Positions 9,996-48,412 of a stretch of 64,000 nucleotides of DNA are shown here, piece after piece. Location: the NCBI GenBank assembly GCA_021107945.1, contig JAIORV010000068.1, positions 1,222 to 65,221 on the forward strand. The letters are read 5' to 3'. Position 1 is the first letter of the stretch; each line of letters starts with the position of its first letter. This stretch comes from Vulcanimicrobiota bacterium (GTDB lineage Bacteria > Vulcanimicrobiota > JAJTBE01). The notes beneath the pieces were generated by a model. The model did no database searches, was not told the DNA's origin, and saw only the letters and a program-made list of their open reading frames with translations. Position numbers and translations under genes: made by a program.

Positions 9996-10718
9996 GCTTG
10001 CCTGCCTGAGCAATAAACTATTCACCGCAAATGTCCCTCCTATAAATTTAGAGGCGGGAGGTGAGAGGCGGGAGGTGAGAAGCGGGGAGCGGGATCTGTT
10101 CTGCACCATCTGCCATCATTCATTTTCTTCGTATCTTCGTGATAAAAAAATCTCTGTGGTCTCTGCGATCTCTGCGGTGAAAAAATACGTACATCCTGCA
10201 CTATCCGTTTATCAGGATGGGGACATCCCTCCTGTATGGGAAAGGGGAGGTGGGAAACGAGATCCATTATCCGTCATCCATTTTCCATTATCCGTTTATC
10301 GGGACGAGGACGTCCCTCCTACAGATTCGGGCTGCATTATCCGTTTTCCGAATTCCTCTGTGGTCTTTGCGGTAAAAAACACGTTGGATGGGGACATCCC
10401 TCCTGCAAACGCGAGAAAGGCCTTCCGAAATGACATTCGCTTACGTCCCAATCATTAAATTGTGAAAAAAATCCTTTAAACGGGAAGGTATTTGTGATGT
10501 TGTAAAGAAAGAAAAAGCGATTTTAATTGCCATAATTTCCAGATGGAACCCAGGATATAAAATTCCCAGGGAAATGGCAAGCGATTTGGGGTATGTATAT
10601 TGAAGGTACGGGCTGAAAAACCATGCCGGCATTGTCGGTTCCTAAATTTTTGGATTATGAGAAGTAGCCGAATCTATATCAAGGGTCAATACCCAAAATT
10701 TCTAATAAGAACCAGGGG

Positions 10719-10830: not shown

Positions 10831-10887
10831 TTAAGAAATGGAGATCTGGACGGTTATAATTAAATGGGCGATCAGGGGTGTATAAAT

Positions 10888-11193
10888 ATGGAAAGCAAGT
10901 ATAAGTATATCGGGCAGAAAATCAATGTCAAGCAGAAGAAGTGGAAGACCCAACATCAGTTTGTCAGAATTATCAAGGATCGATGTAAGGGATGCAATCT
11001 GTGTATTGAATTTTGCCCCGAAGGGATACTTGAAGTATCGGAGGAGTTTAACGCCAAGGGTTATCATCCTCCCCGGATTCGAGAGTCGTTTAAAAGGGGA
11101 TATGATGACCGGGCTTGCATAGGGTGTGAATATTGCGCCCTGATATGTCCCGAGTTCGCTATCTACACGGTACCCGAGGAGGAGACAGCGTGA
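10888..11193 (+). CDS. korD: 2-oxoacid:ferredoxin oxidoreductase delta subunit (2x[4Fe-4S] ferredoxin)
   Basis: CKGCNLCIEFCP and CIGCEYCALICP motifs; start is either 10864 (track) or 10888 (GGGGTG 7 nt upstream); stop TGA overlaps the korA GTG start (GTGA). Confidence 0.75.
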   Translation: MESKYKYIGQKINVKQKKWKTQHQFVRIIKDRCKGCNLCIEFCPEGILEVSEEFNAKGYHPPRIRESFKRGYDDRACIGCEYCALICPEFAIYTVPEEETA

Positions 11194-12350
11194 CCACACA
11201 GACACTCAGCGGTGAATTTTTCATGGCAGGTAATGCGGCGGCGGCAGAAGGTGCAATTGCCGCAGGATGCAGGTTCTTTGGCGGATACCCTATCACTCCA
11301 TCCACCGAGCTGGCGGAGAGAATGTCCCGACGACTTCCACAAATAGGGGGAGTTTTCATCCAGATGGAAGACGAGATAGCATCTATGGCCGCTATTTTAG
11401 GAGCTTCATGGGCGGGCAAAAAAAGTATGACCGCAACATCAGGCCCCGGTATATCATTGATGATGGAGAACATAGGACTCGGGGTGATTACCGAGACTCC
11501 CTGCGTGATAGTCAACGTGCAAAGAGGAGGCCCCTCAACGGGACTTCCAACTCTCGTGGGACAGCAGGACGTAATGCAGGCAAGATGGGGATCTCATGGA
11601 GACTACGAAATAATAGCCCTTGCTCCGGGATCTGTTCAGGAATGCTTCGATGTTGTCATAAAAGCATTTAACTTTGCCGAGCAATACAGGACGCCGGTTA
11701 TTGTCCTGATGGATGAATGTACTTCGCATATGTGGGAGAAGGTTGTAATCCCACCTCCCGAAGAAATTGAGAGAATCAACAGGAAAACTCCCGACGGGCC
11801 GCCTCCAGAGGGCGAAGATTTCTATCCGTATCGCTGTACCGACGGCACGATGATTCCCCCCATGCCAAAAGCGGGGGACGGATACAGGATGCATATTACA
11901 GGATTGACCCACGACGAGAAGGGATATCCGAAGATAAACGCGGCTACCCAGGATAAGCTTGTGAGAAGACTTTGCGACAAGATAAGGAAAAATGCCGACG
12001 ATATTGTGATAACCGAGGATTATATGCTTGATGACGCAGAAATCGTGATTGTCGCATTTGGAACCGTGTCCCGCTCGGCAAAAAGTGCGGTCAGAATCGC
12101 GCGAAAAAAGGGACTCAAAGTGGGACTTCTCAAACTTGTAACAATATGGCCCTTTGCGGAAAAGAAGATAAAAGAGCTTGCCGAGAGAGTAAAGCTCTTT
12201 GTTGTAGCGGAGATAAATTACGGACAGATCGTCAATGAAGTGGAAAGATGCGTTGCAGGAAAAGCGGAAGTCAGGTTGTCGTCAAAACTCGGCGGCGAAC
12301 TTCATCATCCGGAAGAAATCCTGAGCGCTATACCGGAGGTGGTTGTATGA
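11190..12350 (+). CDS. korA: 2-oxoglutarate/2-oxoacid:ferredoxin oxidoreductase alpha subunit
   Basis: In-frame GTG at 11190 preceded by GAGGAGGAG and overlapping the korD stop; N-terminus TTQTLSGEFFMAGNAAAAEGAIAAGCRFFGGYPITPSTE is typical KorA/PorA; the track ORF start at 11133 would overprint korD. Confidence 0.85.
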   Translation: MTTQTLSGEFFMAGNAAAAEGAIAAGCRFFGGYPITPSTELAERMSRRLPQIGGVFIQMEDEIASMAAILGASWAGKKSMTATSGPGISLMMENIGLGVITETPCVIVNVQRGGPSTGLPTLVGQQDVMQARWGSHGDYEIIALAPGSVQECFDVVIKAFNFAEQYRTPVIVLMDECTSHMWEKVVIPPPEEIERINRKTPDGPPPEGEDFYPYRCTDGTMIPPMPKAGDGYRMHITGLTHDEKGYPKINAATQDKLVRRLCDKIRKNADDIVITEDYMLDDAEIVIVAFGTVSRSAKSAVRIARKKGLKVGLLKLVTIWPFAEKKIKELAERVKLFVVAEINYGQIVNEVERCVAGKAEVRLSSKLGGELHHPEEILSAIPEVVV

Positions 12351-13246
12351 TTTCTGATACACCGGAAATTACCCGGATTACACCGGCAATGGAGACAACA
12401 CAGGAGTTGCTCGAATCCCATCCCCTTGATCGGTTTTTGAGGGGCGACCGGATGCCCCACATATGGTGTCCCGGCTGTGGCGCGGGCAATGTTATGGCTG
12501 CATATATCAACGCTATCAAGAACCTGGAAATTGAACTTAACAGGCATGTAGTCGTTTCCGGGATAGGATGCACGGGGAGGATCGCCGGTTATATCAACCT
12601 GGACTCGTATCATACAACCCATGGCAGGGCGATACCTTTCGCTACGGGAATGAAAGTTGCAAACCCAGATCTTATTGTAACGGTGATAAGCGGTGACGGT
12701 GATCTTTTCGCCATAGGCGGAAATCATTTTCTCCACGCGGCAAGAAGAAACGTTAACCTGCTTGTTATTTGCGTAAACAATTACATATATGGAATGACGG
12801 GAGGTCAGCTTGCTCCCACAACACCCCTTGACAACATTACAACAACATCGCCCTTCGGAAACTATGAGCATCCGTTCAACCTTCCATATCTTGCAATGGC
12901 AAGCGGGGCGGCCTATGTGGCAAGGTGGACCACGATACACCTGAGAAGGTTGACAAAATCAATAGAGAAGGCGACGATGAAACCCGGATTTTCATTCATA
13001 GAGGTACTGTCCCCCTGTCCCACGGGATATGGCAAGCTTAACAAGAAAGGCGACGCTCTGGACGTTGCCCGGTTTTTCCAGGAAAAAAGTGTGATTAAAC
13101 ATGGATCGAATCCCTTTGACGCAGGCGTACGAGAAGGCAAGGAAATCATCCTGGGTGAGTTTATCAACAGGGATGACAGACCCTCATTTCTTGAATACCA
13201 GCGAAGAATGGAAGAGAGAGTGGTGGGAAAAAATGCAAATAAGTGA
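12347..13246 (+). CDS. korB: 2-oxoacid:ferredoxin oxidoreductase beta subunit (TPP-binding)
   Basis: ATG at 12347 with GGAGGTGG SD, overlapping the korA stop (ATGA); IWCPGCGAG cluster-binding motif; TPP-binding region GDGDLFAIGGNH. Confidence 0.85.
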   Translation: MISDTPEITRITPAMETTQELLESHPLDRFLRGDRMPHIWCPGCGAGNVMAAYINAIKNLEIELNRHVVVSGIGCTGRIAGYINLDSYHTTHGRAIPFATGMKVANPDLIVTVISGDGDLFAIGGNHFLHAARRNVNLLVICVNNYIYGMTGGQLAPTTPLDNITTTSPFGNYEHPFNLPYLAMASGAAYVARWTTIHLRRLTKSIEKATMKPGFSFIEVLSPCPTGYGKLNKKGDALDVARFFQEKSVIKHGSNPFDAGVREGKEIILGEFINRDDRPSFLEYQRRMEERVVGKNANK

Positions 13247-13811
13247 TGATAACAGGAGAGAAATAAGGGTTGCAGGATTCGGAGGACAGGGAATTGTCCT
13301 GTCGGCGGTTATCCTGGGCAAGGCGGCTTCCATTTATATGGGAAAAAAGGCGGCGGTAATGCAAAGTTACGGGCCGGAATCCCGCGGAGGTGCATGTAGC
13401 GGAGCGATCGTCATTGACGAGGAGACGGTGGATTATCCATACGCCACAAGACCCGATGTATTGCTTTTCCTGTCGCAGGAAGCCTATGCAAAGTATCGCA
13501 AGACGCTTAAAAAGGGTGGATTGATGATTGTCGAAGAAGACCTGGTGGAGCTTGCAGGCGATGACGGGGATGCAATCATATACAAGGTCCCGGCCACAAG
13601 GATGGCGGAAAACCTGGGGAAGAAGATTGTTGCAAACATTATTATGCTTGGCGCCCTGGTGGGAATCTCCGACATAATCACATTTTCTGCAATAAAACAG
13701 TCAGTACTTTCCATGGTTCCCCCAAAAACATTAAAAATCAATCAAGAAGCCGTGGAGCAGGGCTATGAATATGGCAATAAAATAAAGAAGGCTGTGGAGG
13801 TATCCACATGA
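13233..13811 (+). CDS. korG: 2-oxoacid:ferredoxin oxidoreductase gamma subunit
   Basis: ATG at 13233 (MQISDDNRREIRVAGFGGQGIVLSAVILG, the gamma-subunit GxGGQG motif); 14-nt overlap with korB; its stop overlaps the hdrA ATG at 13808 (ATGA). Confidence 0.8.
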   Translation: MQISDDNRREIRVAGFGGQGIVLSAVILGKAASIYMGKKAAVMQSYGPESRGGACSGAIVIDEETVDYPYATRPDVLLFLSQEAYAKYRKTLKKGGLMIVEEDLVELAGDDGDAIIYKVPATRMAENLGKKIVANIIMLGALVGISDIITFSAIKQSVLSMVPPKTLKINQEAVEQGYEYGNKIKKAVEVST

Positions 13812-15763
13812 AACGTATCGGAGTATTTGTATGTCACTGCGGAATAAATATCGCGGGGACACTTGATATCAACAAGATTATACACAGGATAAGCAATTAT
13901 CCTGGAGTGGCGCATGCCGAGCATTATGAATATATGTGCTCTGACCCGGGACAGAATATTGTCAGAGATACCATCAAGGATCAATACCTTGACGGCATAG
14001 TGGTCGCGGCTTGCTCGCCTACCCTTCATGAAACAACATTCAGAAACGCCGCAAAGGATGCGGATATGAATCCGTACATGGTCGAAATCGCCAACATCAG
14101 GGAGTATTGCTCCTGGGTGCACAGGGATAGGCCGGAAGATGCGACGGAAAAGGCCATCAGGATTATCAGAACGGCGGTTGAGAAAGTAAGACGGAATGAA
14201 TCTCTTTACCCCGTAAAAATCCCGGTTTTTCATAAATGCCTCGTGATCGGCGCAGGAATCAGCGGAATCCAGGCGGCGCTTGATGTCGCAAATGCCGGGT
14301 TTGAAGTGATCCTTGTGGAAAAAAGTCCGACTATCGGCGGGAGGATGGCACAGCTATCGGAAACATTCCCGACGCTTGACTGCAGTCAGTGTATCCTGAC
14401 GCCCAAGATGGTGGAGGTTTCAAGACACCCCAAAATCAGGTTGATGGCATATAGTGAAGTAAAAGAGGTTACAGGCTCAATCGGCAATTTCCATGTCAAA
14501 ATCCTGAAAAAACCCACATACGTTGATACCGATAAATGCAACCTGTGTGGAGAATGCGTCAATGTCTGTCCCATCATCATTCCCAGCGAGTTCGACAGGG
14601 GAATGAGCATGCGAAAAGCGATATATATGCCGTTCCCGCAGGCGGTACCGTCAACTTACTGCCTCGATGAAGCGAACTGTCTCGGTCTTAATCCTCTTCG
14701 TTGCAGTAAGTGCCAGGATGTTTGCGAACCCGGAGCTATTAACTATGATATGAAGCCTGAGATTATCGAGGAGGATGTGGGAGCGATTATCGTTGCCACC
14801 GGGTATGACCTATACCATAAAGAAGCTTTAACCGAGTATGGGCTGGGAATATACGAGGATGTCATAGACGGTCTTCAGTTCGAAAGACTTCTTTCTGCAT
14901 CCGGCCCCACATCGGGAGAGATACATCGCCCGTCCGACGGTGAGGTGCCAAAGGATGTAGTATTCATCCAATGCGCCGGCTCAAGGGATGAGAAGCATAA
15001 CCCGTACTGCTCGAAGGTATGCTGTATGTACACGGCAAAGCATGCGATGTTATACAAGCATCGAGTACCCGACGGCCAGGCATATATATTCTATATCGAT
15101 ATAAGGAGCGCGGGCAAGGATTACGAGGAGTTTGTCCAGAGGGCGATGGAAGAAGATCGGATCCTCTACCTGCGCGGAAAAGTCTCGAAAGTTTTCAAGG
15201 AAGGCGAAAAGTTGGTGGTCTGGGGCGTTGACACATTAACAGGTCAGAAAGTGGAAGTTCTTGCCGACCTGGTTGTCCTTGCAACTGCAATAGTTCCCAG
15301 AGCGGCAACGCCGGAGATTGTTAACAAGCTGAAAATAGCCGCCGACGGGAATGGTTTCCTGAAGGAAGCCCACCCGAAGCTCAGACCGGTGGAAAGCTTG
15401 ACATCGGGGATATTTCTGGCGGGAGCGGCACAGAGTCCCAAAGACATACCCGATGCCGTGTCCCAGGGAAGCGGATCCGCCTCGAAAGCTATAGGAATCC
15501 TGTCGCAGAAGAAGCTCCAGCATGATCCCACAATAACCGATGTGGAGGAGATAGCCTGCGGTGGTTGCGGAATCTGTATCTCGGTCTGCCCATACACTGC
15601 CCTGAGCATGGATGACAGACGAAATGTTGTCCTTGTTAATGATGTTCTCTGCGAAGGATGCGGAACTTGTGCCGCCGCCTGTCCCAGTGGCGCCGCCGAG
15701 TTGAGGAATTATACTAACCGGCAGGTCAGGGAAATGATATGCGCCGCTTTGAGTAAGGTATGA
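13808..15763 (+). CDS. hdrA: heterodisulfide reductase subunit A-like flavoprotein (FAD, multiple [4Fe-4S])
   Basis: 651 aa; N-terminal VFVCHCGINIAG Cys motif; FAD-binding GAGISG; ferredoxin-type CNLCGECVNVCP, CGGCGICISVCP, CEGCGTCAAACP; length and architecture typical of HdrA. Confidence 0.9.
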   Translation: MKRIGVFVCHCGINIAGTLDINKIIHRISNYPGVAHAEHYEYMCSDPGQNIVRDTIKDQYLDGIVVAACSPTLHETTFRNAAKDADMNPYMVEIANIREYCSWVHRDRPEDATEKAIRIIRTAVEKVRRNESLYPVKIPVFHKCLVIGAGISGIQAALDVANAGFEVILVEKSPTIGGRMAQLSETFPTLDCSQCILTPKMVEVSRHPKIRLMAYSEVKEVTGSIGNFHVKILKKPTYVDTDKCNLCGECVNVCPIIIPSEFDRGMSMRKAIYMPFPQAVPSTYCLDEANCLGLNPLRCSKCQDVCEPGAINYDMKPEIIEEDVGAIIVATGYDLYHKEALTEYGLGIYEDVIDGLQFERLLSASGPTSGEIHRPSDGEVPKDVVFIQCAGSRDEKHNPYCSKVCCMYTAKHAMLYKHRVPDGQAYIFYIDIRSAGKDYEEFVQRAMEEDRILYLRGKVSKVFKEGEKLVVWGVDTLTGQKVEVLADLVVLATAIVPRAATPEIVNKLKIAADGNGFLKEAHPKLRPVESLTSGIFLAGAAQSPKDIPDAVSQGSGSASKAIGILSQKKLQHDPTITDVEEIACGGCGICISVCPYTALSMDDRRNVVLVNDVLCEGCGTCAAACPSGAAELRNYTNRQVREMICAALSKV

Positions 15764-15770
15764 AAATTAA

Positions 15771-15796
15771 ACGCGGAGGACGCAGAGGACGCAGAG
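15771..15796 (+). repeat. 3-unit heptad array (CGCGGAG-GA-CGCAGAG-GA-CGCAGAG) abutting the start codon of the GxxExxY gene
   Basis: Read directly: acgcggaggacgcagaggacgcagagATG. Its inverted partner is at 16190-16226. Confidence 0.8.
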
Positions 15797-16234
15797 ATGA
15801 ATAAGGCGGAGATGATCAATAAAATAACCGGGAAAATTATCGGCGTGGCAATTGATGTTCACAGGGTGCTGGGACCCGGATTGCTGGAGTCTGCTTACGA
15901 AGCCTGTATGGTGTTCGATCTTATAGAAGCCGGTTTGAAGGTGGAACAGCAAAAACCTCTGCCGGTTATCTATAAAAATGAAAAACTTGATTGCGGATAT
16001 AGACTGGATTTACTTGTTGAAGATGAGGTGATTGTCGAAATAAAATCTGTTGAGAAAGTATTACCCATACATAAATCTCAGTTATTATCTTATTTAAGGC
16101 TTTCAGATAAAAAGGTCGGATTATTAATAAATTTCAATGTAATAATCCTTAAAGATGGAATTTCAAGGATAGTAAATAATTTTCAAGACTCTGCGGTCTC
16201 CGCGATCTCCGCGTTGAAAAAAGAAGGTGAATGA
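15797..16234 (+). CDS. GxxExxY-family protein (PD-(D/E)XK nuclease superfamily, PDDEXK_3-like)
   Basis: 145 aa; motif GVAIDVHRVLGPGLLESAYEACM contains G-x-x-E-x-x-Y; downstream D...E.K-like acidic/Lys residues (LLVEDEVIVEIKSVEK); inserted between hdrA and mvhD; its stop overlaps the mvhD ATG (ATGA). Confidence 0.8.
   Translation: MNKAEMINKITGKIIGVAIDVHRVLGPGLLESAYEACMVFDLIEAGLKVEQQKPLPVIYKNEKLDCGYRLDLLVEDEVIVEIKSVEKVLPIHKSQLLSYLRLSDKKVGLLINFNVIILKDGISRIVNNFQDSAVSAISALKKEGE
16190..16226 (+). repeat. 3-unit heptad array in inverted orientation (CTCTGCG-GT-CTCCGCG-AT-CTCCGCG-TTGAAAAAA), inside the last 12 codons of the GxxExxY gene
   Basis: Reverse complement is TTTTTTCAA-CGCGGAG-AT-CGCGGAG-AC-CGCAGAG, matching the 15771-15796 array unit for unit. 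Confidence 0.8.
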
Positions 16235-16671
16235 TGAAACCGAGTGATAATGGATTTGAGCCAAGAATAGTGGCTTTTTTATGCAAGTGGTGCGCCGGCG
16301 CCGGAGCGGATCTTGCCGGTGTCAGCAGGCTCCAATATGCCCCGAACGCAGTACCCATCATGTTTAACTGCACGGGCAGGCTGGATCCCACATTTGTCCT
16401 GAAGGCATTTACTCAGGGAGCCGACGGTGTTTTCATCGGGGGCTGCCATCCAGGTGATTGTCATTATCTCACAGGTAATTATAATGCCCTCAAAAGGGTA
16501 ATTCTTTTAGAAAAAGTCCTGGTGCAATTTGGAATCAACCCAAGACGCCTTCGCCTGGAATGGGTTTCCGCTTCCGAGGGAAACAAGTTTGCCCGGGTGA
16601 TGAATGAGTTTTCCGCTGAAATAAAGAAGCTGGGTCCCCTTGAAAAACTGGAGGTGTCCCGATGCGAATAA
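16231..16671 (+). CDS. mvhD: methyl-viologen-reducing hydrogenase delta subunit-like protein
   Basis: 146 aa; IVAFLCKWCAGAGADLAG...NCTGRLDP...GGCHPGDCHY, the MvhD/FlpD signature Cys pattern. Confidence 0.85.
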   Translation: MMKPSDNGFEPRIVAFLCKWCAGAGADLAGVSRLQYAPNAVPIMFNCTGRLDPTFVLKAFTQGADGVFIGGCHPGDCHYLTGNYNALKRVILLEKVLVQFGINPRRLRLEWVSASEGNKFARVMNEFSAEIKKLGPLEKLEVSRCE

Positions 16672-17069
16672 TACTGAAGGGAAGCAAGGTCAAGAGCAAA
16701 CTTACCGAGAAAGTGGAAAAAATCAGCGGGCAGAATATATTTGCCTGTTACCAGTGTGGAAAATGTTCGGCCGGATGCCCCATGATCGACTCTATGGATT
16801 ATATGCCGAATCAAGCGATGAAATTGCTGCAAATGGGAGCAGCGGAAGAGATTATCAATTCGAAAACAATGTGGATGTGCGCCTCGTGCCATACATGCTC
16901 GGTGCGATGCCCCCGCGACATCGATCTCTCCGCTGTTATGGAGGCATTAAGACTTATATATCTCAGAACAAATGTCAACAAAGTGGAGCCTTCGCAGATT
17001 CCCGAGGAAGAGTTGAAGGATCTCCCACAGATTGCACTTGTTTGCAATTTTCGGAAGATGACCAGATAA
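16662..17069 (+). CDS. hdrC: heterodisulfide reductase subunit C-like (2x[4Fe-4S])
   Basis: 135 aa; CYQCGKCSAGCP and CASCHTCSVRCP; GGAGGTG SD; 10-nt overlap with mvhD. Confidence 0.8.
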   Translation: MRIILKGSKVKSKLTEKVEKISGQNIFACYQCGKCSAGCPMIDSMDYMPNQAMKLLQMGAAEEIINSKTMWMCASCHTCSVRCPRDIDLSAVMEALRLIYLRTNVNKVEPSQIPEEELKDLPQIALVCNFRKMTR

Positions 17070-17074
17070 CGGAA

Positions 17075-17165
17075 AATGGATAATGGATAATGGAAGATGG
17101 AACTGTAGGAGGGACGTCCCCGTCCCGATGAACGGATAACGGATAACGGAGGACGGATCCAACCT
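17075..17165 (+). repeat. intercistronic composite repeat (GGATAAYGG units plus reverse-complemented GGGACG palindrome module) between hdrC and hdrB
   Basis: ggaaaatggataatggataatggaagatggaactgtaggagggacgtccccgtcccgatgaacggataacggataacggaggacgg; same family as the elements at 2047-2078, 6706-6740, 18841-18882, 37441-37492 and 62918-62975. Confidence 0.75.
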
Positions 17166-17195
17166 CCCTATTCTATATTTAGGTGGACAATTTAT

Positions 17196-18071
17196 ATGAA
17201 ATACGCATATTACCCCGGATGTACATTGAAAAGTTATGCTGACAACCTGGAGTCATCGGTATTGGCTGTGGCGGAAAAGCTGGGTATTCAAATGGAGGAG
17301 TTACCCCACTGGACATGCTGCGGCACTGTTTTCTCACAGGCTGATGACGACCTGGTTCACCAGATAGCTCCACTTCGAATTTTACTTGATGCGCAGAAAG
17401 TTGGCGCCAAAAAACTTCTGGTGGTCTGCTCCATGTGTTACAACACCCTGAAGCAGGCTTCCCTGTTGTTTGAGAAAAAGCCTGACAAACTGGAGACGCT
17501 TAACCTTTTCCTCGATGATGAGGATGACTACCTTGGTGAAGTTGAGGTTGTTCATTTTCTACAAGTTTTGAGGGATGAGGTCGGGATTGAAGAAATTGCA
17601 AAACAGGTGGTAAGGCCATTGACAGGGCTCAATGTCGCCCCTTACTACGGATGTCTTCTTCTCAGACCCCAGGAGGTTGCGTTTGATGAGCCGGAGCGTC
17701 CCACGGTAATTGAGGAGATCCTTGTCGCACTGGGAGCGGAAGCGATAATGGATCCTCTGAAAGTGGAGTGCTGTGGTTCATACCAGACGGTTAACAACAA
17801 GGAAATAATAGCGGACCGTACACGCACCATAATCAACTCCGCACGGTCCAGGGGAGCAGAGATGATAGCCCTTGACTGTCCCCTGTGTGACTTCAACCTT
17901 GATTTCCGACAAAAGGAATCGGAGAAGAAATACACGGATTTCTTTACCATGCCCATCCTGTATTACACGCAGTTGATGGCGCTGGCAATGGGAATTAATG
18001 GGGATATTTATGGGTTTGATAAGCATTATGTTGATCCAAGACCACTTCTCAAGGAGTATGAATTGATATGA
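17196..18071 (+). CDS. hdrB: heterodisulfide reductase subunit B-like (two CCG domains)
   Basis: 291 aa; N-terminal YYPGCTL...WTCCG; second domain YYGCLL...ECCGS; AGGTGG SD; its stop overlaps the next ATG (ATGA). Confidence 0.85.
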   Translation: MKYAYYPGCTLKSYADNLESSVLAVAEKLGIQMEELPHWTCCGTVFSQADDDLVHQIAPLRILLDAQKVGAKKLLVVCSMCYNTLKQASLLFEKKPDKLETLNLFLDDEDDYLGEVEVVHFLQVLRDEVGIEEIAKQVVRPLTGLNVAPYYGCLLLRPQEVAFDEPERPTVIEEILVALGAEAIMDPLKVECCGSYQTVNNKEIIADRTRTIINSARSRGAEMIALDCPLCDFNLDFRQKESEKKYTDFFTMPILYYTQLMALAMGINGDIYGFDKHYVDPRPLLKEYELI

Positions 18072-18814
18072 AAATAATGGAAAAGAATTCGTCAGCAACG
18101 GAAAAAGAAATGAAGGAGAAAAAACCGGCGGAGGTTGAGCAGGCTTTCATAAGTGTTTATATCATGGGGAAAGAACACAGGGTCCCCTTTGGGTTGACAA
18201 TAATGAAAGCGATGGAATATGCCGGTTATCGTTTTGTACGTGGAGCCGGTTGCAGAGCGGGCTTTTGCGGAGCGTGTGCTACTATTTACAGGATGAAGGG
18301 CGATTACAAGCTCGAGACCGCCCTTGCCTGTCAAACCACTGCACTGGACGGGATGTATCTCACCCAGATACCTTTCATGCCTGCAAACAAGTCTGTTTAT
18401 GACATTGAAAAGCTCAATCCGGACATTAACTCGATTCTTCATCTTTATCCCGAAATAGCGCGTTGCGTGAGCTGTAATATGTGCACGCGCTCCTGCCCTC
18501 AGGATCTTGAGGTTATGGATTACATTCAGGCCGCTCTGCGGGGCGACACAGAAGAAGCCGCCAGGCTTTCATTCGACTGCATACAATGCGGACTTTGCAC
18601 TGTGCGCTGTATGGCTGAAATTTCTCATTACCACGTGGGGCAGCTCGCTCGCAGATTGTATGGCAAATATTATTCCCCCACTCCCCGGCATCTTACAGAA
18701 AGGCTCGAGGAGATGGATGAGGGAAAATATGATGAGGCAATGGACGAGCTTGTTGTTATGGATAAGGAAAACTTGAAGAAAAAATACTGGAAACGTGATA
18801 TGGAAGTTAAATAA
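18068..18814 (+). CDS. succinate dehydrogenase/fumarate reductase iron-sulfur subunit-like protein ([2Fe-2S] plus 2x[4Fe-4S] motifs)
   Basis: 248 aa; CRAGFCGAC (plant-type 2Fe-2S), CVSCNMCTRSCP, CIQCGLCTVRC; AAGGAGTATGA SD. Confidence 0.8.
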   Translation: MKIMEKNSSATEKEMKEKKPAEVEQAFISVYIMGKEHRVPFGLTIMKAMEYAGYRFVRGAGCRAGFCGACATIYRMKGDYKLETALACQTTALDGMYLTQIPFMPANKSVYDIEKLNPDINSILHLYPEIARCVSCNMCTRSCPQDLEVMDYIQAALRGDTEEAARLSFDCIQCGLCTVRCMAEISHYHVGQLARRLYGKYYSPTPRHLTERLEEMDEGKYDEAMDELVVMDKENLKKKYWKRDMEVK

Positions 18815-18819
18815 CGGAC

Positions 18820-18950
18820 AACGGAAGCCAGAGGCCGGATCTGTAGGAGGGACGTCCCCGTCCCGATAATCGGTTATCGGAAATTGCAGCTCAAACCTTT
18901 AGGTTTGCCGCTTCTGCTCTGCGGACTCTGCGTTAAATAAAAAAATCGAA
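18820..18950 (+). repeat. intercistronic composite repeat (palindrome module plus heptads CTCTGCG-GA-CTCTGCG-TTAAATAAAAAAA) between the sdhB-like and sdhA-like genes
   Basis: ctgtaggagggacgtccccgtcccgataatcggttatcgg ... cttctgctctgcggactctgcgttaaataaaaaaa. Confidence 0.75.
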
Positions 18951-18978
18951 TCCTTATGAATATGAAGAGGAGAACAAT

Positions 18979-20625
18979 ATGGAAATCATCGACGGTTACC
19001 CCGACTTTATGATGGAATCAATTAAGAAGGTTGAAAGAACCCGTAAATCCCGCATCGGCAGAAACCTTCCCAGGATGTCTTCAGATCAGCGAGAAGTCAT
19101 ATTAAGTAAATTTCATCCCGATTATAAGGAGCATGAAAAGAAGAAGCTTCAAATCGGTCCCAACAAGGGATATCGCATGCCCCTCGAAATGATATCACTC
19201 CTGGAAGCGGAGCCTTTCCTTGATACGAGCAAGGTTGATTTATCCCGCGTGGATTATGATGTTGATGTCCTGATTATTGGGGGCGGAGGGGGAGGAACTG
19301 TCGCATCCATATGGGCGAATATGTCCGGTGTACCCGCCGACAGGATCCTCATCAGCACAAAGCTTCGCCACGGCGACAGCAACTCCATGATGGCACAGGG
19401 CGGAATCCAGGCGGCGGATGGCCCCATTGACAACCCGCCGATTCATTACCTGGATATTATCGGCGGAGGCCATTTCGCCAATAAGCCCAAACTCGCAAGA
19501 ATTCTTGCCATGCAGGCGCCAAAGATTATCAAATGGCACGAGTCCCTGGGCGTGATGTACGACAAGGATAAAGAAGGTAACTTCGTCGAGAGACCGGGAG
19601 GCGGAACTTCTCGCAAGAGAATGCACTCATCCAAGGATTATACAGGAATGGAGATCCTCCGGGTCGTCCGTGATGAGTCCATAAACAGGAAGATTCCCGT
19701 GCTTGAATTTTCACCCGCAATCGAGCTTTTAAAGGACGATATGGGACAGGTAGCCGGCGCAATACTGATGAACCTTGAGACGAACCAGTACTATATTGTG
19801 AAAGCCAAGGTGGTCATAATGGCCACAGGCGGATGGGGAAGATTACATATACAGAATTTCGCCACGACAAATCATTACGGAGCAACGGCGGACGGACTGG
19901 TAATGGCATACCATGTCGGCGCCAAACTCAGAGACCTCGATTCCGTCCAGTATCATCCCACAGGAGCAGCGTACCCGGAGCAGATAGTGGGACTCCTGAT
20001 CACCGAGAAAGTCAGAACGATGGGCGCGCAACCGGTGAATATGAATGGCGAGCTTTTCGTAAATCCACTGGAGCCAAGGGATGTGGAGGCGTCAGCGTTC
20101 ATCAGGGAGTGTTACGAGAGGGAAATGGGAATCACCACACCCACAGGCATGACCGGAGTATGGCTTGACTCGCCAATGATCGATATTGTCCAGGGTGAAG
20201 GCACGATCCATGCCAACCTGGATGCCATGTACAGGATGTTCCAGCGATTCGGGATAGATATGACAAAGCATCCCATGCTGGTTTTCCCGACGCTTCATTA
20301 CCAAAACGGCGGAGTAGAGATAAATGAGCATTGCCAGACATCTGTGAAAGGCCTTTTCGCCGCTGGAGAAGTTACCGGAGGAGTCCACGGCAAAAACAGG
20401 CTTATGGGAAATTCCCTCCTGGATTACAATGTATTCGGTAAGATTGCGGGAATAAATGTGGCAGAGTATATCAAGAATGTGAAGATCGGCAAGCTTACCC
20501 TCGATCATGTAGATAAATACAGAAATATCCTGAGGGATGCCAATATTAAATCAAAAGTCAAAGCCCCCATGATCCTGCCGGAATATCGCGAAGAGAACCT
20601 CATGAAAAGAACGATAAAGGTATAG
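18979..20625 (+). CDS. FAD-binding succinate dehydrogenase/fumarate reductase flavoprotein-like subunit with ~95-aa N-terminal extension
   Basis: 548 aa; dinucleotide motif VLIIGGGGGGTVAS at residue ~97; MAQGGIQAA (FAD-binding_2 signature); active-site-region HY..ATADG / QYHPTGAAY; GAAGAGGAGAACAATATG SD. Confidence 0.8.
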   Translation: MEIIDGYPDFMMESIKKVERTRKSRIGRNLPRMSSDQREVILSKFHPDYKEHEKKKLQIGPNKGYRMPLEMISLLEAEPFLDTSKVDLSRVDYDVDVLIIGGGGGGTVASIWANMSGVPADRILISTKLRHGDSNSMMAQGGIQAADGPIDNPPIHYLDIIGGGHFANKPKLARILAMQAPKIIKWHESLGVMYDKDKEGNFVERPGGGTSRKRMHSSKDYTGMEILRVVRDESINRKIPVLEFSPAIELLKDDMGQVAGAILMNLETNQYYIVKAKVVIMATGGWGRLHIQNFATTNHYGATADGLVMAYHVGAKLRDLDSVQYHPTGAAYPEQIVGLLITEKVRTMGAQPVNMNGELFVNPLEPRDVEASAFIRECYEREMGITTPTGMTGVWLDSPMIDIVQGEGTIHANLDAMYRMFQRFGIDMTKHPMLVFPTLHYQNGGVEINEHCQTSVKGLFAAGEVTGGVHGKNRLMGNSLLDYNVFGKIAGINVAEYIKNVKIGKLTLDHVDKYRNILRDANIKSKVKAPMILPEYREENLMKRTIKV

Positions 20626-20743: not shown

Positions 20744-20770
20744 CGCGGGTCTTTAGACCCGCCTTTTTTT
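20744..20770 (+). terminator. rho-independent terminator GCGGGTC-TTTA-GACCCGC-TTTTTTTT
   Basis: Perfect 7-bp GC stem, 4-nt loop, T8 run; lies in the convergent gap between the sdhA-like gene (+) and glyQS (-). Confidence 0.7.
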
Positions 20771-20797: not shown

Positions 20798-22141
20798 TTA
20801 CAGTTCCAGCAGGTTCTTCAGTTTCCCTTTCAACTCCTCGATGGGAATCCTTTCCTGCACCAGGGTGTCCCTGAACCTGACTGTCACGGCATTATCCTCA
20901 ATTGTGTCAAAATCCACGGTTATACAGAAGGGCGTTCCAACCTCGTCCTGTCTGCGGTATCTCTTGCCGATTGAGCCTTTGATGTCATAATCGGTATAGA
21001 AATCTTTCCTGAGATCCTTGTATATCTTTTCCGCGATCTCCGGAAGGGGTTCCTTTTTAGAGAGCGGTAAGACCGCCGCTTTTATCGGAGCAAGCTTGTT
21101 GCTGAAGCGAAGAACTGTTCTCACGTCTATCCCGCCTTTTGCCGTGGGGGTTTCGTCCTCGTCGTAAGCGTCAACCAGGAATGCCAGAGCGGAGCGATCA
21201 ACACCGGCTGAAGGTTCGATTACAAAAGGTGCTATATGCTCTTTTCTTTCCTCGTCGAAGAATTTCATATCCTTTCCGCTGTCCTTCTCGTGTGCTTTCA
21301 GGTCGTAATCGGTCCTGTTGGCTATGCCCTCAAGCTCCGACCATCCCCAGGGGAATTCATATTCAACGTCGTAGCAGGACAGGGCGTAATGAGCAAGCTC
21401 ATCATCCTCGTGTCGCCGGAGTCTCAGTTTTTCTTTTTTGATTCCCAGATCCGCATACCACTTCATGCGAGTCTCGAGCCATTTTTGATGGCATTCTTCC
21501 GACTGCTCCGGGTATGTGAAATATTCCAATTCCATCATCTCGAACTCCCTTGTGCGGAAAGTGAATTTGCCCGGCGTAATCTCGTTTCTGAATGCCTTGC
21601 CTATCTGTGCAATTCCAAAGGGGAGTTTCTTTCTTGATACCGTCTGAACATTCTTAAAATTGACAAATATTCCCTGAGCCGTCTCGGGGCGCAGATGGAC
21701 CACCGATGATGTATCCTCAACCGCTCCCATAAATGTCTTGAACATCAGATTGAAAAGCCTGGCGTCTGTAAGTTCGCCTCCGCATTCGGGGCACTTGTCG
21801 CCCTCGACGTGATCCGCCCTGAATCTGAGCTTACATTCCTTACAGTCAACCATTGGGTCGGTGAAGCTTTCCACATGCCCCGATGCCACCCAGACCTGCG
21901 GGTGCATCAAAATGGAGGAGTCGAGTCCCACAACATCATCCCTCTCCTGGACATTTGATTTCCACCAGGAGTTTTTAACGTTATTTTTCAACAGCACTCC
22001 CATGGGACCGTAATCATAACAGGAATTTAACCCGCCATATATTTCTGATGATTGAAATATAAAACCTCTCCTCTTACAGAGGGAGACAATTTTCTCCATC
22101 CTTTCCCGCCCGGGAGTCACTTTCTTTTTTACTTTAGACAT
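20798..22141 (-). CDS. glyQS: glycine--tRNA ligase, alpha2 (archaeal/eukaryote-like) type
   Basis: 447 aa; class II synthetase motifs (FRNEITPGKFTFRTREFEMMELEYF motif 2 region; GIANRTDYDL); Zn-ribbon-like CKECKLRF...CPECGG insertion; anticodon-binding C-terminus. Confidence 0.9.
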   Translation of the reverse strand: MSKVKKKVTPGRERMEKIVSLCKRRGFIFQSSEIYGGLNSCYDYGPMGVLLKNNVKNSWWKSNVQERDDVVGLDSSILMHPQVWVASGHVESFTDPMVDCKECKLRFRADHVEGDKCPECGGELTDARLFNLMFKTFMGAVEDTSSVVHLRPETAQGIFVNFKNVQTVSRKKLPFGIAQIGKAFRNEITPGKFTFRTREFEMMELEYFTYPEQSEECHQKWLETRMKWYADLGIKKEKLRLRRHEDDELAHYALSCYDVEYEFPWGWSELEGIANRTDYDLKAHEKDSGKDMKFFDEERKEHIAPFVIEPSAGVDRSALAFLVDAYDEDETPTAKGGIDVRTVLRFSNKLAPIKAAVLPLSKKEPLPEIAEKIYKDLRKDFYTDYDIKGSIGKRYRRQDEVGTPFCITVDFDTIEDNAVTVRFRDTLVQERIPIEELKGKLKNLLEL

Positions 22142-47386: not shown

Positions 47387-47389
47387 TTT

Positions 47390-48385: not shown

Positions 48386-48412
48386 ATTTCTAATTTTTTA
48401 CTATTTTAAATA

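What the first reader, a model, noticed from the sequence alone, without database searches (positions are those of the whole stretch)
10888..20625. Translationally coupled kor-hdrA-mvhD-hdrCB-sdhBA supercluster: candidate ferredoxin/heterodisulfide-type bifurcating module linked to a fumarate-reductase-like flavoprotein pair
Eleven same-strand genes run with overlapping stops and starts: korD/korA GTGA at 11190; korA/korB ATGA at 12347; korB/korG 14-nt overlap; korG/hdrA ATGA at 13808; GxxExxY/mvhD ATGA at 16231; mvhD/hdrC 10-nt overlap; hdrB/sdhB-like ATGA at 18068. HdrA-MvhD-HdrBC is the canonical flavin-based electron-bifurcation core. Kor supplies or consumes low-potential ferredoxin. SdhA/SdhB-like proteins reduce fumarate, a high-potential acceptor. 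Established knowledge: methanogen thiol:fumarate reductase fuses an SdhB-like and an HdrB-like module, and soluble multi-subunit fumarate reductases of rTCA-cycle bacteria contain Hdr-like subunits. A contiguous KorDABG + HdrA-MvhD-HdrCB + SdhBA array suggests a soluble complex coupling 2-oxoacid/ferredoxin, a thiol or direct electron relay, and fumarate/succinate. There is no membrane anchor gene (sdhC/D) here. The sdhA-like protein has an unusual ~95-aa N-terminal extension before the GxGxxG FAD motif.
Basis: partly seen in the sequence, partly recalled or inferred. Interest (0 to 1): 0.65.

Follow-up and report, generated by a model that had tools for sequence, protein, structure and literature searches.

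The report
Hdr-linked fumarate reductase plus Kor operon
This is a real ten-gene operon that joins a 2-oxoacid:ferredoxin oxidoreductase, an electron-splitting heterodisulfide-reductase core and a soluble fumarate-reductase-like enzyme; the same gene set is widespread in uncultured anaerobes and has already been proposed, but never shown biochemically, to couple fumarate reduction to the making of low-potential electrons.

Summary
Eleven + strand ORFs (10888-20625) have exactly the start/stop overlaps described. A promoter-like site lies upstream and a strong terminator downstream. Ten ORFs form the system: KorDABG, canonical HdrA, MvhD, HdrC, HdrB, and a [2Fe-2S]+2x[4Fe-4S] protein with a fumarate-reductase-like flavoprotein. 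The eleventh (GxxExxY/PD-(D/E)XK) is an insertion flanked by inverted repeats and is absent from the closest relative.

The flavoprotein keeps every fumarate-binding and catalytic residue of E. coli FrdA. It has Asn in place of the covalent-FAD histidine, lacks the C-terminal Sdh/Frd domain, and carries a conserved 95-aa N-terminal extension.

Its family (58-70% identity) occurs in roughly 600 or more matched stretches of species-representative genomes of Archaea and Bacteria. In 37 loci with enough flank, hdrCB accompanies it in 35, hdrA in 34, mvhD in 32 and kor in 25, in at least nine gene orders. A donor module (MvhGA hydrogenase or FlxCBA NADH module) is often present. The window has none.

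The idea that Hdr bifurcates electrons to OGOR and a Tfr-like fumarate reductase is already published as a hypothesis (Rubin-Blum 2019; Williams 2021; Mitchell 2024). Verdict: a donor-less new member of a known, biochemically untested kind. Moderate interest.

The parts
10831..10860 (+). sigma-70-like promoter candidate (TTAAGA-18-TATAAT) just upstream of korD
   Evidence: a consensus match only
10888..11193 (+). korD: 2x[4Fe-4S] ferredoxin-like delta subunit (101 aa; an alternative ATG lies at 10864)
   Evidence: Fer4 families. The best NCBIfam hits are OorD/OGOR delta, below cut-off. The public gene call gives 101 aa.
11190..12350 (+). korA: 2-oxoacid:acceptor oxidoreductase alpha subunit
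   Evidence: POR_N + PFOR_II. NF006412 scores 592 bits, above the 411 cut-off. Nearest solved chains are 1yd7, and OGOR 8ys5 and 6n2n.
12347..13246 (+). korB: TPP-binding beta subunit
   Evidence: TPP_enzyme_C. The best NCBIfam hit is 2-oxoglutarate:Fd oxidoreductase beta, 246 bits, below cut-off.
13233..13811 (+). korG: gamma subunit
   Evidence: POR family; NF006323 scores 207 bits, below the 235 cut-off
13808..15763 (+). hdrA: canonical FAD/6x[4Fe-4S] electron-bifurcating subunit (651 aa)
   Evidence: HdrA2 model 827 bits over residues 3-648; 712 bits to 5ODC_A over residues 5-642
15767..16234 (+). Insertion carrying a GxxExxY / PD-(D/E)XK_3 gene (15797-16234), bracketed by 30-nt inverted repeats (15767-15796 / 16189-16218). 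It is an intruder, not part of the redox system.
   Evidence: PF13366 at 7e-42 and TIGR04256. Inverted repeat I1. Absent from L001, where hdrA and mvhD are 66 nt apart, and absent from all 83 related loci.
16231..16671 (+). mvhD/flxD: [2Fe-2S] adaptor that feeds donor electrons to HdrA
   Evidence: FlpD at 6e-51. It matches the MvhD part of the HdrA2 fusion model. Its five Cys are conserved in 40-41 of 45 homologues.
16662..17069 (+). hdrC: 2x[4Fe-4S] subunit (135 aa, shorter than methanogen HdrC)
   Evidence: Fer4_8/Fer4_17. TIGR03290 scores 71 bits, below cut-off. Eight Cys are invariant in 62/62.
17070..17195 (+). hdrC-hdrB spacer holding a dispersed REP-like element (core at 17105-17126) and short ATAACGGA/ATAATGGA-type repeats
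17196..18071 (+). hdrB: two CCG domains (ligands of two non-cubane [4Fe-4S] clusters)
   Evidence: CCG x2. TIGR03288 scores 173 bits, below cut-off, and the SdhE-type anchor model scores 161 bits. Ten Cys are invariant in 65/65.
18068..18814 (+). 'SdhB-like' iron-sulfur subunit: CX4CX2C...C ([2Fe-2S]) plus two CX2CX2CX3C ([4Fe-4S]) motifs
   Evidence: Weak Fer2 hit plus Fer4 dicluster. Only a faint TfrB hit. No sequence match to solved SdhB/FrdB. Twelve Cys are invariant in 78/78, and it is always adjacent to the flavoprotein gene.
18815..18978 (+). sdhB-sdhA spacer holding a second copy of the REP-like element (18843-18864) and a GACGCAGAG-type repeat (18917-18934)
   Evidence: In relatives this spacer is mostly about 10-100 nt (for example 11 nt in L002/L003).
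18979..20625 (+). Fumarate-reductase-like flavoprotein (548 aa): conserved 95-aa N-terminal extension, FAD_binding_2 domain, no Succ_DH_flav_C domain, Asn135 at the covalent-FAD His position
20745..20762 (+). Strong intrinsic-terminator-like hairpin (GCGGGTC-TTTA-GACCCGC + T8) after the last gene. It could also serve the convergent glyS gene.

Best explanation
The region is one operon for a soluble, Hdr-based electron-bifurcating fumarate reductase, co-expressed with its low-potential partner enzyme.

Proposed electron path:
1. A mid-potential donor feeds electrons through the [2Fe-2S] adaptor MvhD to the FAD of HdrA. In relatives the donor is H2 via MvhGA or NADH via FlxCBA. It is not encoded here and is presumably supplied in trans.
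2. HdrA splits each electron pair.
3. The high-potential electron runs HdrC -> HdrB -> [2Fe-2S]/2x[4Fe-4S] subunit -> non-covalent FAD of the flavoprotein. There it reduces fumarate to succinate (E0' about +30 mV).
4. This pays for sending the other electron uphill through the HdrA ferredoxin domains to ferredoxin or the KorD subunit. Kor then reductively carboxylates succinyl-CoA to 2-oxoglutarate (about -500 mV), or the cell otherwise uses the reduced ferredoxin.

HdrC + HdrB + the Fe-S subunit together correspond to a methanogen TfrB split into three genes. Only one CCG protein is encoded, so a direct Fe-S wire, rather than a free thiol/disulfide shuttle, is the more economical reading.

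Shown: gene identities, cofactor ligands, active-site conservation, conserved synteny.
Inferred: substrate, direction, bifurcation, any physical contact with Kor.
For: - Gene identities and tight start/stop coupling.
- A single promoter-like site and a single strong terminator.
- HdrA is full-length canonical.
- All Fe-S cysteines are invariant: HdrB 10/10 in 65 sequences, HdrC 8/8 in 62, Fe-S subunit 12/12 in 78.
- The flavoprotein keeps the FrdA equivalents H232, T234, E245, R248, R287, H355 and R390. These are H326, T328, E343, R346, R367, H440 and R474, all invariant in 57 homologues.
- The covalent-FAD His is replaced by an invariant Asn135. From established knowledge (E. coli FrdA His44 variants), such enzymes keep fumarate reduction but lose succinate oxidation. 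This favours the reductive direction.
- The fold is closest to E. coli FrdA.
- The TfrB model aligns piecewise to the Fe-S subunit, HdrC and HdrB.
- Synteny in 37 well-flanked loci: hdrCB 35, hdrA 34, mvhD 32, kor 25, with MvhGA in 15 and FlxCBA in 7. There are at least 9 gene orders across Archaea and Bacteria.
[quoted passage not shown] Operon-like co-expression was seen in Endoriftia (PMC11636981). A TFR-OGOR-Mvh-Hdr cluster was described in Cloacimonadota (PMC8542988).
Against: - No biochemical data exist for any member.
- No donor module is present in the cluster or in the 64-kb window, so bifurcation here needs an unseen partner.
- The flavoprotein and Fe-S subunit fall below every curated NCBIfam cut-off (TfrA 324 vs 718), so fumarate as substrate is inferred from residues only.
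- Kor specificity for 2-oxoglutarate is not established: only the generic 2-oxoacid alpha model passes its cut-off.
- 12 of the 37 loci lack kor nearby, and Methanofastidiosum and Theionarchaea carry only hdrCB plus the reductase pair. Kor is therefore an optional associate.
- Two repeat-filled spacers and the inserted nuclease gene could break co-transcription.
- Many hosts are fermenters in which Kor is usually read as catabolic.
Confidence: 0.55

Rival explanations
1. Pool-mediated version. HdrCB plus the reductase pair is a free-standing four-subunit thiol:fumarate reductase, and/or HdrABC reduces a still unknown soluble disulfide. Kor, Hdr and the reductase communicate only through free ferredoxin and a thiol/disulfide couple. 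Clustering then reflects co-regulation, not a complex.
For: Methanofastidiosum and Theionarchaea loci carry only hdrC-hdrB-sdhB-sdhA. Methanofastidiosum is reported as a methanogen lineage (my own knowledge, not tested here). HdrB keeps all ten CCG cysteines that form the heterodisulfide site in methanogen HdrB. Rubin-Blum et al. list this as the alternative route. Kor position and orientation within the cluster vary widely.
Against: Only one HdrB/CCG protein is encoded here, so the same site would have to both make and consume the thiols. No thiol-cofactor biosynthesis or DsrC-like gene was seen among the larger ORFs of the window that were scanned. The Fe-S subunit gene directly follows hdrB in most relatives and overlaps it (ATGA) in this window, as expected for assembled subunits.
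Confidence: 0.2
2. Oxidative, confurcating direction. Low-potential electrons from 2-oxoglutarate oxidation (Kor) are combined with high-potential electrons from succinate oxidation to make H2 or NADH. This would let amino-acid-fermenting or syntrophic anaerobes oxidise succinate without a membrane potential. The two steps are 1:1 in an oxidative TCA segment.
For: Many hosts (Asgard, Thermoplasmata, Bathyarchaeia, Thermotogae) are described as fermenters in which Kor is read as catabolic. Group 3c Mvh/Hdr systems are considered reversible. The 1:1 stoichiometry and the complementary potentials come from established thermodynamics.
Against: Asn is invariant at the covalent-FAD position. Non-covalent flavin variants of FrdA lose succinate oxidation (established knowledge). 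The mean potential of the two donors (about -235 mV) would allow H2 formation only at extremely low H2 pressure.
Confidence: 0.12
3. In the donor-less variant seen here there is no bifurcation. The proteins form a plain downhill wire from Kor (2-oxoacid oxidation) through HdrA/HdrCB to fumarate, that is, a 2-oxoacid:fumarate oxidoreductase serving as a fermentative electron sink on the way to succinate and propionate.
For: No MvhAG or FlxABC in cis or in the window. 11 of 37 loci share the donor-less layout. A Na+-pumping methylmalonyl-CoA-decarboxylase-like operon in the same window (46247-49969) points to a succinate-to-propionate route.
Against: MvhD, whose known role is to dock a donor onto HdrA, is retained with its cysteines. 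A full bifurcating-type HdrA would be superfluous. About 100 kJ/mol would be wasted. The donor may simply be encoded elsewhere in the genome.
Confidence: 0.08
4. The flavoprotein pair acts on a substrate other than fumarate (another unsaturated dicarboxylate, aspartate, or a sulfur compound as in AprAB).
For: All curated family cut-offs are missed. The architecture is unusual, with an N-terminal extension and no C-terminal domain. The Fe-S subunit is not recognisably SdhB by sequence.
Against: Every fumarate-contacting and catalytic residue of FrdA is invariant. The NadB-specific Glu121 position is Pro or variable. The only Apr/PAPS-reductase-type hit is marginal (37 bits). Foldseek ranks Frd/Sdh first.
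Confidence: 0.05

Closest known systems
rTCA-associated FlxABCD-HdrABC-KorABCD-TfrAB gene cluster of tubeworm symbionts (Ca. Endoriftia, Escarpia symbiont) and Thioflavicoccus mobilis (Rubin-Blum et al. 2019, PMC6315080; Mitchell et al. 2024, PMC11636981)
   Same: Same core gene set: four-subunit Kor, hdrA, an MvhD-type adaptor (flxD), hdrC, hdrB, frdB/tfrB-like and frdA/tfrA-like. The genes are on the same strand and interspersed. The published order (frdB-frdA-hdrC-hdrB-korDABC-hdrA-flxDCBA) is a rotation of the order in L060; L068 has the same order without flxCBA. The proposed mechanism is also the same: Hdr bifurcates electrons to OGOR and to the fumarate reductase.
   Different: The window lacks flxABC (the NADH module), ATP-citrate lyase and other rTCA genes, pntAB and rnf. 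The host is an uncultured bacterium labelled Ca. Eremiobacteraeota, not a sulfur-oxidising gammaproteobacterium, and there is no evidence of autotrophy. I could not test directly whether the gammaproteobacterial TfrA belongs to the same 549-aa family.
TFR-OGOR-Mvh-Hdr cluster of Ca. Celaenobacter (Cloacimonadota) (Williams et al. 2021, PMC8542988)
   Same: Fumarate reductase of Tfr type, OGOR and Hdr in one cluster, read as functionally linked. The H2-dependent version matches the MvhGA-containing relatives found here (L005, L073 and others).
   Different: That cluster also carries the group 3c [NiFe] hydrogenase, fumarase and succinyl-CoA synthetase. None of these is in the window.
MvhADG-HdrABC of hydrogenotrophic methanogens (PDB 5ODC and related)
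   Same: HdrA is a full-length homologue (712 bits). MvhD, HdrC and HdrB have all cluster ligands. Same bifurcation logic.
   Different: There is no MvhAG here. HdrC is shorter, and HdrB and HdrC score below the equivalog cut-offs. The host is not known to make CoM/CoB. The proposed high-potential acceptor is fumarate via an attached reductase instead of CoM-S-S-CoB.
Thiol:fumarate reductase TfrAB of Methanothermobacter (Heim et al. 1998; NCBIfam NF004900/NF004898)
   Same: TfrA is the best-scoring curated model for the flavoprotein. TfrB equals the Fe-S subunit + HdrC-like + HdrB-like parts found here as three separate genes. Both are soluble, with no membrane anchor.
   Different: Scores are far below the cut-offs (324 vs 718). 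The flavoprotein has a 95-aa N-terminal extension and lacks about 120 C-terminal residues of TfrA. The Fe-S/CCG functions are split over three proteins, with one extra dicluster.
Membrane-bound complex II (SdhABCD/FrdABCD; type E SdhABEF with a CCG-domain SdhE)
   Same: FAD_binding_2 fold, identical catalytic residues, a [2Fe-2S]-containing Fe-S partner, and, as in type E enzymes, a CCG-domain protein next to it (the HdrB hit to the SdhE model scores 161 bits).
   Different: No membrane anchor, no covalent-FAD His, no C-terminal flavoprotein domain. A second [4Fe-4S] motif replaces the [3Fe-4S] motif. The TIGR00384 SdhB family is not matched.
Five-subunit soluble NADH-dependent fumarate reductase of Hydrogenobacter thermophilus (Miura et al. 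2008; cited from my own knowledge, not re-read)
   Same: A soluble, multi-subunit fumarate reductase working in a reductive TCA context with Hdr-like subunits.
   Different: The genes are scattered in that genome, bifurcation is not established, and there is no Kor linkage. I did not compare sequences.

Membership tests
HdrABC/MvhD flavin-based electron-bifurcating core | Full-length HdrA with the FAD domain and all ferredoxin domains of structurally characterised HdrA | tested here: met
   712 bits to 5ODC_A, query residues 3-640 vs chain residues 5-642; HdrA2 model 827 bits (below its 1100 cut-off because that model includes a fused MvhD)
HdrABC/MvhD flavin-based electron-bifurcating core | MvhD/FlxD [2Fe-2S] adaptor | tested here: met
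   PF02662 FlpD at 6e-51; five Cys conserved in 40-41 of 45 homologues
HdrABC/MvhD flavin-based electron-bifurcating core | HdrC with two [4Fe-4S] motifs and HdrB with two CCG motifs | tested here: met
   Pfam hits. Eight and ten Cys respectively are invariant. The equivalog cut-offs are missed (71 vs 160; 173 vs 345), so these are Hdr-like rather than CoB-CoM equivalogs.
HdrABC/MvhD flavin-based electron-bifurcating core | A mid-potential electron donor module (MvhAG, FlxABC, Fdh, Frh) associated with MvhD | tested here: not met
   No hit to MvhG/MvhA or FlxA/B/C anywhere in the 64-kb window. Present in 22 of 37 related loci as MvhGA or FlxCBA. The rest of the genome could not be searched.
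HdrABC/MvhD flavin-based electron-bifurcating core | Bifurcating activity / heterodisulfide substrate | not testable with these tools
   Needs enzyme assays
Thiol:fumarate reductase TfrAB | TfrA equivalog score (NF004900 cut-off 718 bits) and TfrA length/architecture | tested here: not met
   324 bits. Only model positions 6-425 of 546 are matched. There is an extra 92-aa N-terminus and a missing C-terminal part.
Thiol:fumarate reductase TfrAB | Single TfrB polypeptide combining SdhB-like and CCG domains | tested here: not met
   The TfrB model aligns in pieces to three separate proteins: the Fe-S subunit to model positions 46-166, HdrC to 119-221 and HdrB to 263-468
Sdh/Frd flavoprotein superfamily (fumarate/succinate active site) | Dicarboxylate-binding and catalytic residues (E. 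coli FrdA H232, T234, E245, R287, H355, R390) | tested here: met
   H326, T328, E343, R367, H440 and R474 are aligned and invariant in 57 homologues. Top Foldseek hit is 1kf6_A, E=1e-29.
Complex II SdhA/FrdA proper | Covalent FAD histidine (FrdA His44) and C-terminal Succ_DH_flav_C domain | tested here: not met
   The His position is an invariant Asn135. There is no PF02910 hit and the sequence ends about 50 aa after the FAD domain.
Complex II SdhB/FrdB and membrane anchor | SdhB family HMM (TIGR00384 / Fer2_3) and sdhC/D or frdC/D genes | tested here: not met
   No dhsB hit at 1e-5 and only generic Fer2/Fer4 hits. No sequence match to solved SdhB. No anchor gene in the locus.
L-aspartate oxidase NadB | NadB equivalog score and the NadB-specific Glu121 | tested here: not met
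   TIGR00551 scores 235 bits vs a cut-off of 453. The position aligned to FrdA Phe (NadB Glu121, from my own knowledge) is Pro or variable. NadB ranks 44th by fold.
2-oxoglutarate:ferredoxin oxidoreductase (four-subunit KorABDG) | Four subunits alpha/beta/gamma/delta with TPP and 2x[4Fe-4S] domains | tested here: met
   Pfam POR_N, PFOR_II, TPP_enzyme_C, POR and Fer4. The generic alpha model NF006412 passes (592 vs 411).
2-oxoglutarate:ferredoxin oxidoreductase (four-subunit KorABDG) | Specificity for 2-oxoglutarate | tested here: inconclusive
   2-oxoglutarate-specific models are the best or near-best hits for most subunits, but all are below cut-off (alpha 431 vs 579; beta 246 vs 364; delta 52 vs 93). 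Por, Vor and Ior models score much lower. The nearest solved chains include OGORs.
Published Kor-Hdr-Tfr 'rTCA bifurcation' cluster (Rubin-Blum 2019) | Co-directional, interspersed korABCD + hdrA + flxD/mvhD + hdrCB + frdBA | tested here: met
   Window gene order compared with the published order
Published Kor-Hdr-Tfr 'rTCA bifurcation' cluster (Rubin-Blum 2019) | flxABC NADH module and linkage to ATP-citrate lyase / rTCA genes | tested here: not met
   No Flx homologue in the window. No acl, idh or acn genes among the larger window ORFs that were scanned.

The most novel reading that the evidence does not exclude
The conserved core (HdrA-MvhD-HdrCB + Fe-S subunit + flavoprotein, usually with Kor) may be a universal, modular super-complex found from Asgard archaea to Chloroflexota. 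In this reading fumarate, not a heterodisulfide, is the physiological high-potential acceptor of non-methanogen 'MvhADG-HdrABC' systems. The low-potential electron would be injected directly into Kor through KorD without free ferredoxin, analogous to the Hdr-Fwd super-assemblies of methanogens. That would hard-wire the two redox steps flanking succinyl-CoA. It would identify the 'unidentified heterodisulfide' invoked in Asgard, Thermoplasmata and Bathyarchaeia genome papers. The donor-less form in this window would accept electrons from an as yet unknown partner docking on MvhD.
Probability: 0.2. Interest if true: 0.8.

Novelty: new member of a known kind. Interest (0 to 1): 0.45.

Why it matters
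If the proposed coupling is real, fumarate reduction would join crotonyl-CoA, caffeyl-CoA and heterodisulfide reduction as an exergonic half-reaction that drives ferredoxin reduction. It would also explain what Hdr does in the many anaerobes that lack CoM/CoB.

The survey made here shows the gene set is much more widespread than the few lineages for which it has been discussed. It occurs in Thermoplasmata, Bathyarchaeia, Heimdall- and Promethearchaeota, Chloroflexaceae, Thermotogae, Acetothermia, Spirochaetota and others, with exchangeable H2 or NADH donor modules. A 2026 survey of autotrophs still treats the co-location as peculiar to Endoriftia (PMC13147460).

For this particular window the finding is one more, slightly reduced and repeat-invaded, member. 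Its value is as a compact ten-gene target for expression, and as evidence that the donor module can be uncoupled from the core.

Tried and rejected
- L-aspartate oxidase (NadB) reading: rejected on HMM rank, the Glu121 position and fold rank.
- AprAB / PAPS-reductase reading: only a 37-bit hit to 8a8o_A, so rejected.
- Canonical TfrAB or SdhAB membership: curated cut-offs and architecture are not met.
- Search for a hydrogenase or Flx donor in the window: none found.
- Pfam or NCBIfam scan of 38 of the window's ORFs (all of at least 300 aa plus some shorter ones; several small ORFs were not scanned). No SucCD, fumarase, ACL, Rnf, formate dehydrogenase or thiol-cofactor genes were found.
- Internal terminators: only weak candidates, no more than in shuffled sequence.
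- Papers that looked promising but did not address this cluster: the non-methanogenic Methanocellales paper, the Atabeyarchaeia paper, which speaks only of an 'unidentified heterodisulfide', the HdrA evolution preprint, which gives only STRING partners, and the WOR-3 and Cloacimonadota surveys.
- I did not run a multimer prediction (no tool for it), nor a second structure job for the Fe-S subunit.

Full report
**1. What is in the sequence**

The + strand between 10888 and 20625 carries eleven consecutive ORFs.
- GTGA at 11190 (korD/korA).
- ATGA at 12347 (korA/korB).
- A 14-nt overlap at 13233-13246 (korB/korG).
- ATGA at 13808 (korG/hdrA).
- ATGA at 16231 (GxxExxY/mvhD).
- A 10-nt overlap at 16662-16671 (mvhD/hdrC).
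- ATGA at 18068 (hdrB/Fe-S subunit).

Three junctions are not coupled: 33 nt after hdrA, 126 nt between hdrC and hdrB, and 164 nt before the flavoprotein gene. A public gene call of the same contig gives identical genes and lengths. A promoter-like site (10831-10860) precedes korD, and a strong hairpin with a T-run (20745-20762) follows the last gene. Internal terminator candidates are weak and no more frequent than in shuffled sequence. A single transcription unit of about 9.9 kb is therefore plausible, but it has not been shown.

**2. Gene identities**

Pfam and NCBIfam give the following.
- KorD is a 2x[4Fe-4S] protein. KorA has POR_N + PFOR_II, and the generic 2-oxoacid:acceptor oxidoreductase alpha model passes its cut-off at 592 bits. 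KorB binds TPP. KorG belongs to the POR family.
- HdrA is 651 aa.
- Next comes a GxxExxY / PD-(D/E)XK_3 protein.
- MvhD matches FlpD at 6e-51.
- HdrC has two [4Fe-4S] motifs, and HdrB has two CCG domains.
- A 248-aa protein has a plant-type [2Fe-2S] cysteine pattern plus two CX2CX2CX3C motifs.
- A 548-aa FAD_binding_2 protein closes the row.

HdrA is canonical: 712 bits over its full length to the HdrA of the solved MvhADG-HdrABC complex (5ODC_A). The nearest solved relatives of KorA are a Pyrococcus 2-keto acid:ferredoxin oxidoreductase and two OGORs. The 2-oxoglutarate-specific models are the best or near-best for most Kor subunits, but all are below cut-off. Specificity for 2-oxoglutarate is therefore likely but not established.

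**3. The flavoprotein pair**

The flavoprotein scores best against TfrA (324 bits), then Sdh/Frd models, then NadB. It is below every curated cut-off. The FAD domain starts at residue 96, there is no Succ_DH_flav_C domain, and TfrA model positions 426-546 are unmatched.

Alignment to E. coli FrdA shows that H232, T234, E245, R248, R287, H355 and R390 correspond to H326, T328, E343, R346, R367, H440 and R474. All are invariant in 57 homologues. The histidine that carries covalent FAD in FrdA aligns with Asn135, which is also invariant. The position that is Glu121 in NadB (my own knowledge) is Pro or variable.

An AlphaFold2 model (pLDDT 85.7; N-terminal extension above 85) is closest to E. coli FrdA (1kf6_A, E=1e-29). 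NadB appears only at rank 44. The protein is therefore a fumarate-reductase-type enzyme with non-covalent FAD. It is neither an aspartate oxidase nor a canonical SdhA/FrdA/TfrA.

From established work on FrdA His44 variants, loss of the covalent link preserves fumarate reduction but abolishes succinate oxidation. This favours the reductive direction.

The partner Fe-S protein has no sequence match to solved SdhB/FrdB. Its 12 cysteines are nevertheless invariant in 78 homologues, and its gene always sits directly upstream of the flavoprotein gene. The TfrB model aligns piecewise to this protein, to HdrC and to HdrB. The three together therefore resemble a split TfrB.

**4. Distribution and synteny**

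The flavoprotein family is about 549 aa long, with the N-terminal extension conserved. Members are 58-70% identical across Archaea and Bacteria.

I compared the window proteins with 83 loci by tblastn. Among the 37 loci with at least 9 kb upstream and 5 kb downstream:
- the Fe-S subunit is present in 37;
- hdrC-hdrB in 35;
- hdrA in 34;
- mvhD in 32;
- korA and korB in 25.

The gene order differs in at least nine ways. Examples are kor upstream (as here), kor downstream (Thermoplasmata, Chloroflexaceae), kor split around the cluster (Thermotogae, Acetothermia), and hdrCB before kor (L060, L068). Such shuffled but persistent linkage across many phyla is strong evidence for a functional unit.

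The 2.5-3 kb that many relatives have between mvhD and hdrC encodes the small and large subunits of a [NiFe] hydrogenase, sometimes with a maturation protease. It is present in 15 of the 37 loci. Seven loci instead carry FlxC/FlxB/FlxA-like genes (Fe-S proteins plus an NAD-binding flavoprotein). Some have a 1061-aa double HdrA (L046). Eleven loci, like the window and its 83%-identical relative L001, have no donor in cis. No hydrogenase or Flx homologue exists anywhere in the 64-kb window.

**5. The intruders**

The GxxExxY gene is bracketed by 30-nt imperfect inverted repeats (15767-15796 and 16189-16218). It replaces the 66-nt hdrA-mvhD spacer of L001. It is absent from all 83 related loci. 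It is best read as a small mobile cassette that landed inside the operon and acquired an ATGA junction with mvhD.

The two long spacers each hold a copy of a dispersed element (core GTAGGAGGGACGTCCyCGTCCC). It has 7 copies in the window against none expected. GACGCAGAG-type 9-mers accompany it, found at 8 intergenic sites.

**6. How it most likely works**

The parts list is that of a flavin-based electron-bifurcating Hdr whose high-potential branch ends in a fumarate reductase rather than in heterodisulfide reduction. The path is donor -> MvhD -> HdrA-FAD. One electron then goes HdrC -> HdrB -> Fe-S subunit -> FAD -> fumarate. The other goes through the HdrA ferredoxin domains to ferredoxin or KorD, and on to Kor.

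With NADH (-320 mV) or H2 (-414 mV) as donor, fumarate (+30 mV) and ferredoxin or 2-oxoglutarate synthesis (about -500 mV) as acceptors give a mean acceptor potential of about -235 mV. The overall reaction is therefore exergonic (established potentials, my own arithmetic). The two acceptor reactions flank succinyl-CoA synthetase in a reductive TCA branch and are needed 1:1.

Only one CCG protein is encoded, so a direct Fe-S relay is more economical than a free thiol shuttle. This is inference. The missing donor is the main gap for this window.

The window also encodes a Na+-pumping methylmalonyl-CoA-decarboxylase-like operon (46247-49969). In this organism, fumarate reduction may therefore feed a succinate-to-propionate fermentation, with the reduced ferredoxin as the conserved energy, rather than or in addition to 2-oxoglutarate synthesis.

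**7. What is already known**

The same gene set (frdB-frdA-hdrC-hdrB-korDABC-hdrA-flxDCBA) was described in tubeworm symbionts and Thioflavicoccus mobilis. [quoted passage not shown] The cluster behaves as an operon in Endoriftia transcriptomes (PMC11636981). A TFR-OGOR-Mvh-Hdr cluster was noted in Cloacimonadota MAGs (PMC8542988). A 2026 survey still cites this as an unproven suggestion and did not find the co-location in the other autotrophs it examined (PMC13147460).

Genome papers on Asgard archaea speak of an 'unidentified heterodisulfide' for their Mvh-Hdr (PMC11291895). They do not mention the adjacent reductase that I find in Heimdall- and Promethearchaeota loci (L067, L070, L073, L081, L083).

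I found no biochemical characterisation in the searchable library.

**8. Verdict**

The system is a new, donor-less and repeat-invaded member of a kind that has been hypothesised but never tested. The breadth of the family and its exchangeable donor modules are the most interesting by-product of this check.

Confidence in the bifurcating fumarate-reductase reading is about 0.55. Confidence in direct wiring to Kor is about 0.2-0.3.

Noticed in passing
window 15767-16234: A GxxExxY / PD-(D/E)XK_3 nuclease-family gene sits between hdrA and mvhD, flanked by 30-nt imperfect inverted repeats. It is absent from the 83%-identical relative L001 and from all other related loci, and it looks like a small mobile cassette. 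Its stop overlaps the mvhD start (ATGA).
   Followed up: yes
window 2055, 6716, 10301, 17105, 18843, 37462, 62922 (22-nt cores): A dispersed REP-like element, GTAGGAGGGACGTCC(C/T)CGTCCC, occurs 7 times (0 expected), always intergenic. Two copies lie inside the operon spacers, embedded in about 69-nt similar blocks with ATAACGGA/ATAATGGA-type short repeats.
   Followed up: partly
window 10152-10178, 15770-15796, 16189-16215, 18917-18934, 26409-26444, 29884-29901, 37411-37428, 62878-62895: A second repeat family consists of tandem 9-mers of GACGCAGAG type. It often lies within about 150 nt of the REP-like element. The ORF at 10075-10458 (127 aa, no family hit) overlaps such repeats and is probably not a gene.
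   Followed up: partly
window 46247-49969 (- strand): A Na+-translocating decarboxylase operon: a beta subunit (TIGR01109 passes its cut-off), a biotin carrier, and a carboxyltransferase whose best match is methylmalonyl-CoA decarboxylase alpha (814 bits, below the 999 cut-off). It suggests a succinate-to-propionate route in the same organism.
   Followed up: partly
window 5644-6438 (- strand): An EFR1-family ferredoxin (163 bits, above cut-off). It is a possible soluble electron carrier close to the operon, next to a large hybrid sensor kinase/response regulator gene (2322-5642).
   Followed up: no
window 22001-24800: A stretch with a marked G+C drop (0.33 against about 0.45) holds a 771-aa AAA_15/AAA_21 (AbiEii/OLD-like) ATPase gene on the - strand. 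It may be a horizontally acquired defence gene.
   Followed up: no
L046:3000-6185 (also L010, L012, L019, L031 and others): Chloroflexaceae and many Thermoplasmata clusters replace HdrA with a roughly 1060-aa double HdrA-like protein that has a second Pyr_redox_2/NAD(P)-binding region. This may be a built-in pyridine-nucleotide donor.
   Followed up: partly
L026, L052, L056, L082: In Thermotogae, Acetothermia and one Nitrososphaerota locus the kor genes are split: korG lies upstream of hdrA (or of hdrC), while korDAB lie downstream of the flavoprotein gene or of hdrA. This implies co-expression of the whole block.
   Followed up: no
L002, L003, L004: Methanofastidiosum and Theionarchaea carry only hdrC-hdrB-FeS-flavoprotein, without hdrA, mvhD or kor within 10 kb. 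This could be a free-standing four-subunit thiol:fumarate reductase.
   Followed up: partly
window 59467-62864: whiA, type I GAPDH and phosphoglycerate kinase genes are clustered. They are ordinary housekeeping context.
   Followed up: no
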